This document shows, one piece after another, positions 4,559 to 53,270 of a stretch of 64,000 nucleotides of DNA (the first letter of the stretch is position 1; each line of letters starts with the position of its first letter). A program made the position numbers and the translations under genes. The stretch is taken from NCBI GenBank assembly GCA_021785125.1, contig JAJYGF010000013.1, positions 41,413 through 105,412 on the forward strand. The letters run 5' to 3'. This stretch comes from a bacterium. Its GTDB lineage: Bacteria > Patescibacteriota > Minisyncoccia > Moranbacterales > UBA2206. The notes beneath the pieces are model-generated. The model was not told the origin of the DNA. It saw only the letters and a list, made by a program, of their open reading frames with translations, and did no database searches.

Positions 4559-5625
4559 CGGTCTGACATTTTCAAATTAGCGTCGGTCTTGGTGTTTTTC
4601 CAACCGTCCGACAATCCGCGGAGGCCGGTTTTTTGGCAGCGGAAGTACGCGGCCGCTGCGATCATGGCGGCATTGTCCAATTGGAAAGCCGGTTCCGGGC
4701 AAGAAAATAGCGTGTTCGGAAAATTGTGCTTTACGGCTTCTTGCAGCTGTTTCTGCAGTTCGAGATTGGCGCTGACGCCGCCGGCAACAAGAATGCTCCT
4801 TGGTCCGTATTTTTTGGCCGCCGCGATTGTTTTGGCGGTCAGCACATCGATGACAGCTTGCTGAAACTCGCGACTCATGGACGAAATAAAATCAGGATTT
4901 TTCTTGAAGTCTTCATTTTTTTTCGTAGCGTAGAGCGCCGCCGTCTTCAGGCCGGAAAAGGAAAAATTAAAATCTCCGGAATTTATCATTGGGCGAGGAA
5001 GGCTTATGTCGTAATCTCTGGCGAATTTTGACGGCTGTTTTTGTGCTTCCGATGCTATAGCCGGGCCGCCCGGATAGCCCAAATCCAAAATTCTGGCCAC
5101 TTTGTCGAAAGCTTCGCCGACCGCGTCATCTTGCGTTTCGCCGATAATTCTGTAGTCCAGATGGTCTTCCATAAGAATCAGCTGCGTGTGGCCGCCGGAA
5201 ACGACCAGTGTCAAAACGGGAAAAGGGATGTCCGTGTCACGCTTCCCGATAAAGTTGGCGTAGATGTGTCCTTCAATGTGATGAATGCCGATGAGGGGTT
5301 TTTTCCAGGCATAGGCCAACGTTTTGGCGGCGGCGGTGCCGACCAGCAGTGCCGGAATAAGGCCGGGTCCGGAAGTGACGGCAATAAGATCGATCTCGTT
5401 CTTTCCGATTCCGGCCGTATCCAAGGCGGATTCGATCACCGGCAGAATATTTTTCAGATGTTCCCGGGCCGCCAGATTGGGAACCACACCGCCCCAGCGG
5501 GCATGCAACTTGATTTGCGAAGAAACCATGTTGGACAGCGGCTTGGCGAAGCCGTCAGTCCGGCTTATTCGGATGACGGAAGCGGATGTTTCATCGCATG
5601 ATGTTTCGATGCCGAGAATAATCAT
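4555..5625 (-). CDS. tsaD: tRNA N6-adenosine threonylcarbamoyltransferase TsaD (Kae1/Gcp family)
   Basis: N-terminal MIILGIETSCDETSASV, HxxxH metal-binding (HHIEGH), ASKHA fold motifs throughout. Confidence 0.9.
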   Translation of the reverse strand: MIILGIETSCDETSASVIRISRTDGFAKPLSNMVSSQIKLHARWGGVVPNLAAREHLKNILPVIESALDTAGIGKNEIDLIAVTSGPGLIPALLVGTAAAKTLAYAWKKPLIGIHHIEGHIYANFIGKRDTDIPFPVLTLVVSGGHTQLILMEDHLDYRIIGETQDDAVGEAFDKVARILDLGYPGGPAIASEAQKQPSKFARDYDISLPRPMINSGDFNFSFSGLKTAALYATKKNEDFKKNPDFISSMSREFQQAVIDVLTAKTIAAAKKYGPRSILVAGGVSANLELQKQLQEAVKHNFPNTLFSCPEPAFQLDNAAMIAAAAYFRCQKTGLRGLSDGWKNTKTDANLKMSDR

Positions 5626-23826: not shown

Positions 23827-23842
23827 TCTGTGCTAATTATAA

Positions 23843-23878
23843 AGGGGCGTCTACTGTAGACGCCCCTTCTTTTTCTCT
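23843..23878. terminator. Bidirectional terminator AGGGGCGTCTAC-TG-TAGACGCCCCT + T-run
   Basis: Perfect 11-bp inverted repeat between convergent genes; arms resemble the REP element arms. Confidence 0.6.
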
Positions 23879-50677: not shown

Positions 50678-50706
50678 GTAGAGACGCCCCGCCGGGGCGT
50701 CTCTAC
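50678..50706. repeat. REP palindrome GTAGAGACGCCCCG-C-CGGGGCGTCTCTAC (copy 1)
   Basis: Perfect 14-bp arms; identical copy at 51002..51030. Confidence 0.8.
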
Positions 50707-50716
50707 GTTTCAATGT

Positions 50717-51283
50717 ATGCAACCAAAATTCAAAAACAAATACAAAATAAAATCCGCCAGATTATCGGGATATGATTATTCCCACAATGGGATGTATTTT
50801 ATAACCATCTGCACCAAGGATAGGCAGGAATTTTTTGGACGCGTTGAAAATGGGGAAATGGTTTTATCGGATATGGGGAAAATCATTCAAGATGAATTAT
50901 TGCAAACGCCGAAAATCCGTCCGAATGTAAAATTGGACGAATGGGTGATAATGCCAAACCATATCCATGTGATTATTGAAATATGCAATGCAAGGGTTCC
51001 CGTAGAGACGCCCCGCCGGGGCGTCTCTACGAATGGAAACAAACGTGGTGGTTATAATCCTAAATGGAAACCAAATTCGATCGGTTCAATTATTAATCAA
51101 TTAAAATCCATTTGCACAAAACGCATTTTAAAATTAGAAAATGTTACATTCGCCTGGCAATCGCGGTTCTACGACCACATCATCCGCAATGAAATTTCTT
51201 TGGACAAGATCCGCGAATATATACGAACCAATCCCCAGATGTGGGAACGGGACAGAAATAATATTGAGAATCTCTGGATCTAA
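50717..51283 (+). mobile_element. REP-associated tyrosine transposase (RAYT, IS200/IS605 Y1-transposase fold)
   Basis: HuH motif HIHVII and catalytic-Tyr block WQSRFYDHIIRNE; start likely ATG 50717 (longer ORF from GTG 50675 translates REP copy 1). Confidence 0.75.
51002..51030. repeat. REP palindrome copy 2, in-frame inside RAYT coding sequence
   Basis: 29/29 identical to copy 1; encodes VETPRRGVST within ORF. Confidence 0.8.
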
Positions 51284-51287
51284 ATAA

Positions 51288-51312
51288 AGGCTCGAAAAAG
51301 CCTTATTTTTTA
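51288..51312. terminator. Rho-independent terminator AAGGCT-CGAAAA-AGCCTT + T-run
   Basis: After RAYT stop. Confidence 0.6.
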
Positions 51313-51436
51313 TGTCTTACTGTTAACCTTGACTTTTGGGTTGATTTGGAGTATAATGTAAAATTACTGTGAAGTTGTTTTAAAATTCAAAACCCGCTTT
51401 TCCGACGGCTAAAATATCGGATAGGAGGTGCGACAA

Positions 51437-51712
51437 ATGAAAAAGGTGCTTAGTGAAGACAAGTATAGGGGTTGGAATGTATGGCTGGAAGAAGGCTTTT
51501 GTGCTGTCTATGCGAGATTTCACTATACGCTTCAATATCCCAATCCAAATTGGGGAAAAGTAGTTTCCTACATCGAAAGTGTGGATATTGGCGAGGAGGA
51601 ATATCGTCGCCTCTATGATGGTGAGGATCCGGCAATTGTTCTGGCTTCTTGGGAAGAAACTAAAGAGAGAATAAAAAGGGAAATATATTCTTTCTTTACC
51701 TTGCAGAAGTAA
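51437..51712 (+). CDS. Hypothetical small protein
   Basis: AGGAGGT RBS 7 nt before ATG at 51437. Confidence 0.45.
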   Translation: MKKVLSEDKYRGWNVWLEEGFCAVYARFHYTLQYPNPNWGKVVSYIESVDIGEEEYRRLYDGEDPAIVLASWEETKERIKREIYSFFTLQK

Positions 51713-51729
51713 ATATTAAAAAAGATATC

Positions 51730-51935
51730 TATCCATCTTAAAACTGGGATAGGAAAGTTGGACATAATAACTGCAAATGTCCCGCTCTGAAGGCAGGTAA
51801 CTCAGAGTTGTAGAAGAAAACACCCGTGAGCCACAATAAATTTGTTGGCCATAGATCAGGTGTTCCTGCATCCCTTTTGGGATCCAAGGGTTTTGATTAT
51901 AGTATCGAAGCCCTTTTTTGTTTGGTTTTTGCATA
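51730..51935 (+). ncRNA. Candidate structured small RNA upstream of eno (unclassified)
   Basis: Series of local hairpins (GGACAT..ATGTCC; CTCTGA..TCAGAG; ACACC..GGTGT; CCCTT..AAGGG) ending with GGG..CCC stem + T-run. Confidence 0.25.
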
Positions 51936-51976: not shown

Positions 51977-53245
51977 ATGTCTGCGATCAAGAAAATATTT
52001 GCCAGAGAAATTTTAGATTCACGAGGCAATCCGACGGTGGAAGTTGAAGTTGAATTGGAATCAGGAACAAAAGCGTTGGCGGCGGTGCCATCTGGCGCTT
52101 CGACCGGAACATATGAAGCCTTGGAGCTGCGCGACGGAGACAAAAAAAGATATAACGGGCTTGGAGTTTTGCGGGCGGTGGAAAATGTGAATAAAAAGAT
52201 CCAGCCGGAAGTTGTCGGCATGGAAGTTTCGGATCAAGAATTGATTGATAAAAAAATGCTGGAACTGGACGGCACCGAAAACAAAACTAACTTGGGTGCC
52301 AATGCGATTCTCGGAGTCTCTTTGGCAGTATGTCGCGCTGCAGCGACCGAAACTGGATTGCCGCTATATAAATATATTGCACAGGCCTACAAACTACCAA
52401 CTAAAAACTACAAGCTTCCTATCCCTATGTTCAACGTGATCAACGGCGGCAAGCATAGTGATTCAGGCTTGGCTATCCAGGAATATAAAATTGTGCCAAA
52501 CGGCATCAAGACTTTCAAGGAACAATATCGCGCCGGCAGTGAAATTTTCCACAAACTGAAAGAGTTGATCGTGGCCGAAGGCGGCAGTGTCGGAGTGGGT
52601 GACGAGGGCGGCTTTGCACCGCACTTGGAAAGCAATTCCAAGCCATTGGAGCTGATGAACCGCGCTATCGAGGAAGCCGGATACAAAAAGGGCGAACAAG
52701 TGAGTTGCGGCGTGGATGCCGCGGCCTCCTCATTTTTCGATGAAAAAGAAAATCAATATATATTCAAGCCGGACAGCAACGGCATCTTGCGTGAAATGCT
52801 GGTCAACATATACAACGAATGGATTTCCAAGTATCATGTGATTTCGGTCGAGGATGGCCTGAATGAGAATGATTGGGAAGGTTGGCGCGCGATGAACGAA
52901 AAGATCGGCGGAAAAATCATGCTGATCGGGGACGATCTTCTGGTGACCAATGTCAAAAGACTGCAGAAAGCGATCGAAGAAAAGGCTTGTAACGCGGTCT
53001 TGATCAAGGTCAATCAGATCGGTTCGCTTTCTGAAACGATCGATTGTATCAAGCTGGCCAAGAAGAACAAGATGAAAATCGTCATCTCTCACCGCAGTGG
53101 CGAGACGACTGATGATTTCATCGCGGATCTGGCGGTGGGAACCGGCGCGGAATATATCAAGTCCGGTTCGCTTTCGAGAGGCGAAAGAATCTGCAAATAC
53201 AATAGGCTTTTGAGGATTGAAGAAGAATTAAAAAATAAAAAGTAA
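51977..53245 (+). CDS. eno: Enolase
   Basis: SRGNPTVEVEVELESG, catalytic loops, DDL, KVNQIGSLSET signature. Confidence 0.95.
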   Translation: MSAIKKIFAREILDSRGNPTVEVEVELESGTKALAAVPSGASTGTYEALELRDGDKKRYNGLGVLRAVENVNKKIQPEVVGMEVSDQELIDKKMLELDGTENKTNLGANAILGVSLAVCRAAATETGLPLYKYIAQAYKLPTKNYKLPIPMFNVINGGKHSDSGLAIQEYKIVPNGIKTFKEQYRAGSEIFHKLKELIVAEGGSVGVGDEGGFAPHLESNSKPLELMNRAIEEAGYKKGEQVSCGVDAAASSFFDEKENQYIFKPDSNGILREMLVNIYNEWISKYHVISVEDGLNENDWEGWRAMNEKIGGKIMLIGDDLLVTNVKRLQKAIEEKACNAVLIKVNQIGSLSETIDCIKLAKKNKMKIVISHRSGETTDDFIADLAVGTGAEYIKSGSLSRGERICKYNRLLRIEEELKNKK

Positions 53246-53270
53246 AGACGCTCCGGCGGAGCGTCTCTAC
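53242..53270. repeat. REP-like palindrome copy 3 (GTAAAGACGCTCCG-G-CGGAGCGTCTCTAC) with compensatory substitutions
   Basis: Same architecture as REP copies 1/2; C>T and G>A changes preserve the stem; eno-gpmI intergenic. Confidence 0.7.

What the first reader, a model, noticed from the sequence alone, without database searches (positions are those of the whole stretch)
50678..51283. RAYT between pgk and eno with identical REP copies, one embedded in-frame in the transposase gene
Two perfect 29-nt palindromes flank and interrupt a Y1 HuH transposase (HIHVII / RFYDH). The internal copy adds VETPRRGVST between the HuH and Tyr motifs without breaking the frame. This could be self-targeted insertion of its own REP or a domesticated RAYT. 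The element splits an otherwise contiguous glycolytic cluster.
Basis: seen in the sequence. Interest (0 to 1): 0.6.

Follow-up and report, generated by a model that had tools for sequence, protein, structure and literature searches.

The report
RAYT gene carrying its own REP
A small REP-associated tyrosine nuclease gene sitting between two glycolysis genes carries a copy of its own target DNA hairpin inside its reading frame, which is real but is a hallmark of this enzyme subfamily published in 2018, not a fresh self-insertion.

Summary
The 29-nt palindrome GTAGAGACGCCCCGCCGGGGCGTCTCTAC occurs at 50678-50706, 10 nt before the ATG, and at 51002-51030, in frame as VETPRRGVST. The gene is a 188-aa HuH/Y1 gene (50717-51283) between pgk and eno. 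A diverged third copy lies at 53242-53270.

The "self-insertion" reading does not hold as stated. VETPRRGVST is in the consensus of 52 homologs at the same site. In 45 of 66 related loci from many phyla a perfect GT[AG]G...C[TC]AC palindrome sits between the HuH strand and helix alphaC. Stem changes are compensatory, and two reading frames are used.

Quentin et al. 2018 (PMC6006769) already describe this as the unique feature of TnpA-Y1 subclass 2.4 (Bertels RAYT group 4): "double foot" REPs inserted in frame within tnpAREP. The window gene fits that subclass, so it is a new, probably Patescibacterial, member of a known kind. RFYDH is the GTAG-reading W motif; the catalytic Tyr is Y168 (EYIRTNP). 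A relative with contiguous pgk-eno-gpmI supports the cluster-splitting claim.

One result goes beyond the literature. The REP and the adjacent alphaC codons behave as one swappable block, and REP stem type tracks alphaC residues.

The parts
50678..50706 (.). Upstream 'double-foot' REP: a 5' GTAG foot, a 14-bp stem including the feet, one central base and a 3' CTAC foot. It ends 10 nt before the RAYT start codon, in the 52-nt pgk-RAYT spacer.
   Evidence: The predicted hairpin is -28.4 kcal/mol, z = -5.2. The same REP-at-minus-10 layout is seen in L081.
50717..51283 (+). RAYT / TnpA-REP gene, 188 aa. It fits TnpA-Y1 subclass 2.4, which corresponds to Bertels group 4.
   Evidence: Pfam Y1_Tnp. 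There are 805 homologs. 4ER8 is the only PDB sequence hit and the top fold hit at E = 2.6e-6. The motifs match Table 1 of PMC6006769.
50960..50968 (+). HuH motif H82-I83-H84, within MPNHIHVIIEI. This is the beta-strand 82-89 of the model.
51002..51030 (.). Internal REP, identical to the upstream copy. It is read in frame as VETPRRGVST (residues 96-105). The palindrome extends to 51001-51031.
   Evidence: The predicted hairpin is -31.3 kcal/mol. The peptide lies in a low-confidence loop, residues 90-121 of the AF2 model. The equivalent site is occupied in 45 of 66 related loci.
51080..51130 (+). Codons of helix alphaC (residues 122-138, IGSIINQLKSICTKRIL). This corresponds to the helix that lies in the minor groove of the REP hairpin in E. 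coli TnpA-REP.
   Evidence: AF2 model. Messing 2012, PMC3479197. Its sequence co-varies with REP stem type.
51155..51187 (+). W motif WQSRFYDHIIR. It aligns to E. coli W94-R104, which reads the 5' GTAG.
51218..51235 (+). Catalytic tyrosine motif Y168-I-R-T-N-P. This is the Y-x3-NP signature of class 2 and aligns to E. coli Y115...N119-P120.
51287..51311 (+). Terminator-like hairpin plus T-run directly after the RAYT stop codon.
   Evidence: This is a consensus match only.
53242..53270 (.). Diverged REP with 3 mismatches in inverted orientation, filling the eno-gpmI spacer. Its degenerate foot GTAA supplies the TAA stop codon of eno. The gpmI ATG follows 5 nt later.

Best explanation
This is a 'REPtron'. 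It consists of a single-copy REP-associated tyrosine nuclease/transposase gene (RAYT, also called TnpA-REP) together with its cognate REP hairpins. The gene belongs to TnpA-Y1 subclass 2.4, which corresponds to Bertels RAYT group 4.

Shown here.
- The protein has the HuH strand, the GTAG-reading W motif, the Y-x3-NP tyrosine helix and the TnpA-REP fold.
- The REP is a 'double foot' type, GTAG-stem-CTAC, so either strand can form the same GTAG-footed hairpin.
- One copy lies 10 nt before the start codon.
- An identical copy lies inside the gene, in the codons of a disordered loop between the HuH strand and helix alphaC.
- This internal copy is a family-wide feature kept as a DNA palindrome, not as a peptide.

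Inferred by analogy with E. coli TnpA-REP (4ER8). The enzyme binds the hairpin in single-stranded DNA with alphaC in the minor groove and the W motif on GTAG. It cleaves and rejoins DNA through Y168. The internal REP is tolerated because the loop is peripheral.

Inferred from the mosaics and co-variation. The internal REP and the alphaC codons next to it are inherited and exchanged as one block. This keeps the hairpin and the helix that reads it matched.

The RAYT, plus an orphan 91-aa gene, was inserted into a pgk-eno-gpmI cluster that is contiguous in a relative.
For: Family.
- Pfam Y1_Tnp is above its cut-off.
- The only PDB sequence hit and the top fold hit is 4er8_A.
- The motifs MPNHIH / WQ / YIRTNP, the 188-aa length and the double-foot REP match the subclass 2.4 row of Table 1 in PMC6006769.
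- That paper states that REPs inserted in frame between HuH and Y are the unique feature of this subclass.

Conservation of the internal hairpin.
- VETPRRGVST is in the consensus of 52 homologs.
- 45 of 66 loci have a perfect stem of at least 10 bp in the HuH-W interval, against 1.6% of random windows of the same size. Density is 3.64 versus 0.11 per kb.
- Stems differ by compensatory changes: 102 double-change cells against 26.8 in shuffles.
- The frames GTA-GAG (25 loci) and xGT-AGA (8 loci) are both used, and the TAG-stop frame is never used.
- The peptide lies in a loop of pLDDT below 50-60 directly before helix 122-138.

Concerted evolution with external copies. The internal copy is identical or nearly identical to copies just outside the gene in 16 loci and in L003.

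Linked block.
- The window gene and P0012 are about 90% identical in DNA over nt 1-270 and 440-567, but 33-57% over nt 271-440, which holds the REP and alphaC.
- 14 of 58 pairs with at least 80% N+C identity are mosaics of this kind, with the same break points.
- REP peptide type predicts the alphaC motif: 8/8, 3/3 and 63/74.
- The partial correlation of REP arm with alphaC, given N+C, is 0.315, p about 5e-4.
- Mutual information reaches 1.07-1.23 bits between one alphaC residue and stem positions 11-12.
- AlphaC is the hairpin-binding helix in 4ER8.

Insertion into the cluster. L003 has pgk-eno-gpmI contiguous.
Against: - No activity, binding or expression data exist for any subclass 2.4 member.
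- NCBIfam REP_Tyr_transpos scores 67.3 bits, below its cut-off of 80.
- Only three REP copies occur in 64 kb, all within 2.6 kb of the gene. REP proliferation in this genome is therefore not shown.
- The REP-alphaC association could be plain physical linkage plus shared ancestry. The REP arm also correlates with the rest of the protein (partial r = 0.274), and the permutations did not control for phylogeny.
- The hairpins used for the covariation count were picked as perfect Watson-Crick stems. The percentage paired and the absence of G-U pairs are therefore partly built in.
- About a third of loci have no perfect internal hairpin, so it is not indispensable.
Confidence: 0.85

Rival explanations
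1. Neutral passenger. A REP entered a permissive loop once in the ancestor of the subfamily. It is kept perfect only by mutational processes, such as template-switch correction of quasi-palindromes or gene conversion and RAYT-mediated exchange with external REPs. It has no function of its own. Its co-variation with alphaC is only linkage.
For: The peptide is in a low-confidence peripheral loop. Quentin et al. make the same suggestion. About one third of loci lack a perfect hairpin or have degenerate or duplicated copies. Intragenic REPs occur in many unrelated genes (and 22 of 82 copies).
Against: Many loci keep a perfect 14-16-bp internal palindrome although no copy lies within 5 kb on either side. 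The site is always the loop next to the hairpin-reading helix, never another loop. The association with alphaC residues is concentrated at stem positions 10-13.
Confidence: 0.3
2. Recent self-targeted insertion of a REP into this particular RAYT gene.
For: The internal and upstream copies are 29/29 identical, as expected after a recent copy event.
Against: The same residues occur at the same site in orthologs at 55-75% identity. The site is occupied in 45 of 66 loci across phyla. 29 nt is not a multiple of 3. Identity of internal and flanking copies is the rule in this family.
Confidence: 0.04
3. The internal and upstream palindromes act mainly as RNA structures in the RAYT mRNA. They would be attenuators, RNase targets or a binding site for autoregulation that keeps a potentially harmful nuclease low.
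For: Very stable predicted RNA hairpins of -28 and -31 kcal/mol sit directly before the start codon and in mid-gene. No promoter-like site was found in the pgk-RAYT spacer, so the gene is probably read through from pgk across the upstream hairpin. From my own knowledge, IS200 uses hairpins to limit tnpA expression.
Against: Inner stems are strictly Watson-Crick with no G-U pairs, although ascertainment is biased. The same sequence is dispersed at unrelated intergenic sites in both orientations. No U-tract follows either copy. This reading does not exclude the main explanation.
Confidence: 0.15
4. The ten residues VETPRRGVST are a functional peptide motif, and the palindrome is a by-product of coding for it.
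For: G102 and V103 are nearly invariant in the closest homologs.
Against: Other orthologs encode unrelated peptides from the same kind of palindrome, such as RRDALQCVST, VETHCNASLR and VGAHSCAPL. Two reading frames are used. pLDDT is below 50. Identical DNA occurs outside genes.
Confidence: 0.02

Closest known systems
TnpA-Y1 subclass 2.4 tnpAREP with 'double foot' REPs inserted in the gene (Quentin, Siguier, Chandler and Fichant 2018, BMC Genomics 19:475, PMC6006769). This corresponds to RAYT group 4 of Bertels et al. 2017 (PMC5581495).
   Same: HuH NH[IFV]H, the WQ motif and the Y-x3-NP motif. Length of about 190 aa. A long REP with 5' GT[AG]G and 3' C[TC]AC. A REP in frame between HuH and Y, at the beta3:alphaC variable region. 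Low gene and REP copy number. Patchy distribution across many phyla.
   Different: The host is probably a Patescibacteria (CPR) MAG, a group not named in that survey of complete genomes. The Y motif reads YIRTNP rather than the consensus YIxNNP. The paper treats the variable region as peripheral and without effect. The linkage of REP type with alphaC sequence and the block-wise mosaics are described here, not there.
E. coli TnpA-REP / RayT (YafM), structure 4ER8 bound to a REP hairpin (Messing et al. 2012, PMC3479197). This is subclass 2.2 / group 2.
   Same: The fold (top Foldseek hit), the HuH motif, the WQxRFxxHxIR GTAG-reading motif and the Y-x3-NP catalytic helix. The REP carries a 5' GTAG.
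   Different: About 19% identity. E. coli REPs are imperfect, bulged and single-footed, number in the hundreds, and none lies inside the gene. The E. coli loop between the HuH strand and alphaC is about 25 residues shorter.
IS200/IS605 TnpA (subclass 1.1), an autonomous insertion sequence.
   Same: The Y1 HuH fold and recognition of sub-terminal DNA hairpins in single-stranded DNA.
   Different: It has a Y-x3-Q motif, high copy number, hairpins at both element ends and often tnpB. Here NCBIfam transpos_IS200 scores 19 bits against a cut-off of 55, and the gene is single-copy in the window.
Intragenic REPs and RPEs in housekeeping genes (Di Nocera et al. 2013, PMC3733652; Rickettsia palindromic elements).
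   Same: Palindromic repeats that are translated in frame as short peptide inserts in tolerated loops.
   Different: Those are scattered insertions at different sites in unrelated genes. Here the host gene is the REP's own enzyme and the site is fixed across the family.

Membership tests
TnpA-Y1 subclass 2.4 / RAYT group 4 | HuH motif NH[IFV]H | tested here: met
   MPNHIH, with H82 and H84. P80, H82 and H84 are invariant in alignment A1, and N81 is conserved in at least 90% of sequences. Compared with Table 1 of PMC6006769.
TnpA-Y1 subclass 2.4 / RAYT group 4 | W motif WQ, followed by conserved D/E-H and R residues that read GTAG | tested here: met
   W147-Q148...D153-H154...R157 aligns to E. 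coli W94-Q95...E100-H101...R104.
TnpA-Y1 subclass 2.4 / RAYT group 4 | Y motif YIxNNP (class 2 signature Y-x3-NP) | tested here: met
   Y168-I-R-T-N-P. The class signature Y-x3-NP is met. The subclass consensus has N where this protein has T.
TnpA-Y1 subclass 2.4 / RAYT group 4 | Long 'double foot' REP (5' GT[AG]G and 3' C[TC]AC) next to the gene | tested here: met
   The copy at 50678-50706 is GTAG...CTAC, 10 nt upstream of the ATG. There is no copy within 150 nt downstream. A diverged copy lies 2 kb downstream.
TnpA-Y1 subclass 2.4 / RAYT group 4 | [quoted passage not shown] | tested here: met
   The copy at 51002-51030 encodes residues 96-105, between strand 82-89 and helix 122-138.
TnpA-Y1 subclass 2.4 / RAYT group 4 | Placement within the subclass in a phylogeny or MCL clustering of TnpA-Y1 proteins | not tested
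   Reference sequences of the published subclasses were not available. Homologs include Nostoc, Fischerella, Bacteroidota and Chloroflexota proteins, as in the published range.
RAYT / TnpA-REP in general | TnpA-REP fold: a four-stranded sheet, alphaB/alphaC on one face and alphaD carrying the Tyr | tested here: met
   AF2 model with pLDDT 78.5. The top PDB hit is 4er8_A, E = 2.6e-6, TM 0.52-0.58.
RAYT / TnpA-REP in general | NCBIfam equivalog NF047646 REP_Tyr_transpos above its curated cut-off | tested here: not met
   67.3 bits against a cut-off of 80. I take the shortfall to reflect a model trained on other RAYT subclasses, which is my inference. The protein is therefore filed under subclass 2.4, not as that equivalog.
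RAYT / TnpA-REP in general | Binds and cleaves its cognate GTAG-footed REP in single-stranded DNA | not testable with these tools
   Needs biochemistry. It is known only for the E. coli enzyme.
REP (repetitive extragenic palindrome) | 5' GT[AG]G tetranucleotide at the foot of a stable hairpin | tested here: met
REP (repetitive extragenic palindrome) | Many dispersed extragenic copies in the host genome | tested here: inconclusive
   There are only 3 copies in the 64-kb window, all near the RAYT. The whole genome was not available. The exact 29-mer occurs in at least 120 metagenome stretches, 70 of the 80 read have no RAYT nearby, and 60 of 82 copies are outside long ORFs.
REPIN (inverted REP doublet) | Two REPs in inverted orientation separated by a short spacer, forming a larger hairpin | tested here: not met
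   The two perfect copies are direct and 324 nt apart. No doublet exists in the window.
IS200/IS605 insertion sequence | TnpA with Y-x3-Q, NCBIfam transpos_IS200 above its cut-off, multiple identical copies | tested here: not met
   19.1 bits against a cut-off of 55. The motif is Y-x3-NP, not Y-x3-Q. There is one copy in the window.

The most novel reading that the evidence does not exclude
The internal REP is not just tolerated. Together with the codons of the N-terminal part of helix alphaC it would form a portable 'specificity cassette'. In this reading the hairpin and the helix that reads it sit side by side in one roughly 170-nt block. That block is exchanged by recombination between otherwise near-identical RAYT genes. 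A simple correspondence would then link two alphaC residues (positions K-3 and K-2 of the xx[FY]K motif) to stem base pairs 10-13. For example, N/G-Q goes with ..CC(C/T)G, R-G with GCA.. or GTA.., and R-S with GTTGCA. This would explain why the REP is always at this site, and it would give a readable recognition code for ssDNA hairpins.
Probability: 0.35. Interest if true: 0.6.

Novelty: new member of a known kind. Interest (0 to 1): 0.3.

Why it matters
In itself this locus adds only a probable Patescibacterial (CPR) example to a subfamily whose odd habit of carrying its own REP in frame was published in 2018. It matters a little more for two reasons.

First, the comparison made here shows the internal hairpin is a conserved DNA-level element at one fixed site. 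It is perfectly paired, changes compensatorily and is read in two frames. It is not a scatter of insertions.

Second, the hairpin travels with the codons of the hairpin-binding helix as one recombining block. If that linkage is functional, this subfamily offers natural matched pairs of ssDNA hairpin and reader helix. Such pairs would make the long-open question of how RAYTs choose their REPs testable by helix swaps.

Tried and rejected
- A first literature search with loose terms returned only irrelevant microbiome papers.
- Searches of PMC6006769 for 'internal' and 'intragenic' found nothing. The relevant passage uses 'inserted within'.
- A looser pattern for further REPs in the window found only the two perfect copies. 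No second RAYT is present in the window.
- The 23842-23868 palindrome was considered as a fourth REP. I rejected it as such because it lies between convergent ORFs, is followed by a T-run and has the arms in inside-out order.
- The idea that the segment between the upstream and internal REP is a mobile unit was rejected. Homology with P0012 covers the whole ORF from ATG to stop and ends outside it.
- The orphan ORF 51437-51712 gave no hit in Pfam or PHROGs. One call failed on a frame error.
- I ran no further search on that ORF.
Only short contigs of the source organism were retrievable.
- The absence of G-U pairs is not used as strong evidence for DNA over RNA, because hairpins were selected as perfect Watson-Crick stems.

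Full report
**1. Observation**

- The 29-nt sequence GTAGAGACGCCCCGCCGGGGCGTCTCTAC occurs exactly at 50678-50706 and 51002-51030. A third copy with three mismatches lies in inverted orientation at 53242-53270. No match is expected in shuffled sequence.
- Each copy has 14-bp arms around one central base. The internal copy extends to 15-bp arms at 51001-51031.
- The ORF 50717-51283 reads the internal copy in frame as VETPRRGVST, residues 96-105. The ATG was chosen because homologs start MQ/MP-x-KFKNKY.
- The flanking genes are phosphoglycerate kinase, enolase and cofactor-independent phosphoglycerate mutase.
- Two independent assemblies from other samples reproduce the region, including both copies, with 0 and 1 mismatch.
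One correction: only the 5' side of the gene has a REP. The 3' side has a terminator-like hairpin with a T-run.

**2. The gene**

- Pfam Y1_Tnp is above its cut-off. NCBIfam REP_Tyr_transpos is the best NCBIfam match but below its cut-off, at 67 against 80 bits. The IS200 model is far below its cut-off.
- A profile of 53 sequences hits a single PDB sequence, E. coli TnpA-REP (4ER8).
  - PEHMH aligns to MPNHIH.
  - WQPRFWEHAIR aligns to WQSRFYDHIIR.
  - DYIYINP aligns to EYIRTNP.
- The catalytic tyrosine is therefore Y168. RFYDH belongs to the motif that reads the GTAG foot in the E. coli structure.
- An AlphaFold model (pLDDT 78.5) has the following elements:
  - the HuH strand at residues 82-89;
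  - a poorly defined loop at 90-121 that contains the REP-encoded peptide;
  - helix 122-138;
  - a strand at 152-155;
  - the tyrosine helix at 159-179.
- Its best structural match in the PDB is 4er8_A.

**3. Is the internal copy an insertion peculiar to this gene?**

- It is not. The protein has 805 database relatives.
  - In an alignment of the 52 best and most diverse, VETPRRGVST is part of the consensus at the same place.
  - Other members carry RRDALQCVST, RRDAINRVST or tandem multiples there.
- DNA of 80 related loci was read from one genome per species. The phyla are Patescibacteria, Chloroflexota, Cyanobacteria, Bacteroidota, Ignavibacteria and Proteobacteria, among others.
- In 45 of the 66 loci with an intact HuH-to-W interval, a perfect stem of at least 10 bp, usually 13-16 bp, lies in that interval. 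Only 1.6% of random windows of the same size in the same loci have one.
- Almost all have the form GT[AG]G-stem-C[TC]AC. The inner stem differs between loci through paired changes: 102 double-change cells against 27 in shuffles.
- The palindrome is read as GTA-GAG... in 25 loci and as xGT-AGA... in 8. It is never read in the frame where the foot gives a TAG stop.
- Two points follow.
  - The conserved entity is the DNA palindrome, not the peptide.

**4. Relation to copies outside the gene**

- In 16 loci the internal hairpin is identical or nearly identical to hairpins just upstream of the start or just after the stop. Examples are L032, L048, L055, L056 and L069. L003 shows the same.
- This is also the layout in the window. 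In many other loci the internal copy is perfect although no copy lies within 5 kb.

**5. What is known**

- Quentin, Siguier, Chandler and Fichant 2018 (PMC6006769) define TnpA-Y1 subclass 2.4, which corresponds to Bertels group 4.
  - The motifs are HuH NH[IFV]H, WQ and YIxNNP.
  - The median length is 194 aa.
  - The REPs are long 'double foot' REPs.
[quoted passage not shown] They locate these in a variable region that their model places at the periphery.
- Bertels et al. 2017 report group 4 in Cyanobacteria, Chlorobia and Caldilineae, with low-copy flanking repeats.
- Di Nocera et al. 2013 document in-frame REPs in many unrelated genes.
- No other paper in the library mentions the double foot or internal REPs.
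- The window locus meets every tested feature of subclass 2.4, so the phenomenon is already known. The locus is a new member, probably from a Patescibacteria MAG.
  - The nearest homologs are named Patescibacteria or Moranbacteria.
  - The glycolytic neighbours are 66-79% identical to those of a Parcubacteria MAG.

**6. What the comparison adds**

- The window gene and P0012 come from another genome, where the gene lies between rnhB and rpmF. They are about 90% identical in DNA over nt 1-270 and 440-567. Identity falls to 33-57% over nt 271-440, the stretch that holds the REP and the alphaC codons.
- P0012 has the REP GTAGAGACGCATTGCAATGCGTCTCTAC and a similar copy 10 nt before its ATG.
- Among 109 homologs, 14 of the 58 pairs with at least 80% identity in the N- and C-terminal parts are 45% identical or less in alphaC.
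  - All seven such pairs examined lose similarity right after the HuH strand.
  - They regain it 6-10 residues before the W motif.
- REP peptide type predicts the alphaC motif: RDALQCVS with IIRGFK in 8/8, RDAINRVS with RWYKGR in 3/3, and VETPRRGV with IINQFK in 63/74.
- In 45 loci with DNA, REP arm distance correlates with alphaC distance after removing the N+C distance (partial r = 0.315, p about 5e-4). It also correlates with the rest of the protein (partial r = 0.274).
- Mutual information between the residue two positions before the conserved Lys of alphaC and the stem is 1.07 and 1.23 bits at arm positions 11 and 12. It is negligible at positions 5-9.
- The REP and the helix that presumably reads it therefore form one recombining block. 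Whether this reflects function or only physical linkage and shared ancestry is not settled. The permutations did not correct for phylogeny.

**7. The REP elsewhere**

- Of the 80 stretches read, 70 carry no RAYT gene, and about 10 have the copy in or next to one.
- 60 of 82 copies are outside long ORFs. The contigs range from 32 to 73% G+C.
- The sequence is thus a dispersed REP shared by very different organisms. In the window there are only three copies, all within 2.6 kb. The genome-wide count could not be made.

**8. Context**

- In L003, pgk, eno and gpmI are contiguous. pgk ends at 772 and eno starts at 819, there is no REP in the spacer, and eno and gpmI overlap.
- In the window about 1.3 kb lies between pgk and eno. 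It holds the following:
  - the REP, the RAYT and a terminator;
  - a near-consensus promoter and an orphan 91-aa ORF;
  - a second terminator-like site.
- The claim that the element splits a glycolytic cluster is therefore supported.
- Close homologs sit in different places in different genomes. This fits mobility or horizontal transfer rather than long-term synteny.

**9. Verdict**

- The 'self-insertion' interpretation is replaced by 'family hallmark'.
- The kind is already described.
- Interest is modest, and is raised somewhat by the block-wise co-variation of REP and alphaC.

Noticed in passing
window 53242-53270: The diverged REP fills the whole eno-gpmI spacer. Its degenerate foot GTAA provides the TAA stop codon of eno (53243-53245), and the gpmI ATG follows 5 nt after the hairpin. 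In the relative L003 the two genes overlap and there is no REP. An intact GTAG foot would also supply a stop codon (TAG).
   Followed up: partly
window 23842-23868: The perfect palindrome AAGGGGCGTCTAC-T-GTAGACGCCCCTT lies between convergent ORFs and is followed by a T-run, so it looks like a bidirectional terminator. Its arms resemble the REP arm (GTAG-ACGCCCC) but in inside-out order. Whether it derives from REP halves is unknown.
   Followed up: partly
window 51329-51915: An orphan 91-aa ORF (51437-51712, with GGAGG before the ATG) has a near-consensus promoter at 51329-51357 (11 of 12 matches) and a terminator-like site at 51886-51915. It has no Pfam or PHROGs match. It lies in the same extra 1.3 kb as the RAYT, relative to the contiguous pgk-eno of L003.
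   Followed up: partly
L086-L165 (metagenome loci): The identical 29-nt REP occurs in contigs from 32% to 73% G+C. The same hairpin is therefore shared by very different organisms, which suggests horizontal spread of the RAYT/REP system or strong constraint by the enzyme.
   Followed up: partly
L044 5253-5453, L048 5253-5495, L018 4314-4571, L017 5253-5576, L023 555-776; protein P0062: Next to the internal REP many homologs carry tandem partial duplications. These are of the left arm (VETFRR-VETFRRNVST, VETLQY-VETLQCNVST) or of short flanking units (VGTGRDAAS four times; five to six VETPQRDLVS units in P0062). The site is therefore prone to slippage or repeated cleavage and rejoining at the GTAG foot.
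   Followed up: no
L003 1-5646: In this Parcubacteria MAG the RAYT lies about 1.4 kb downstream of the same pgk-eno-gpmI cluster instead of inside it. It has an identical REP inside the gene (5287-5306) and 26 nt after the stop (5596-5615).
   Followed up: partly
L004, L005, L047, L064 versus L006, L016, L051, L058, L067 (internal hairpins): Where the internal REP is not double-footed, one foot is still present. Some loci keep only the 3' CTAC and others only the 5' GTAG, so the functional strand of the hairpin may differ between genes.
   Followed up: no
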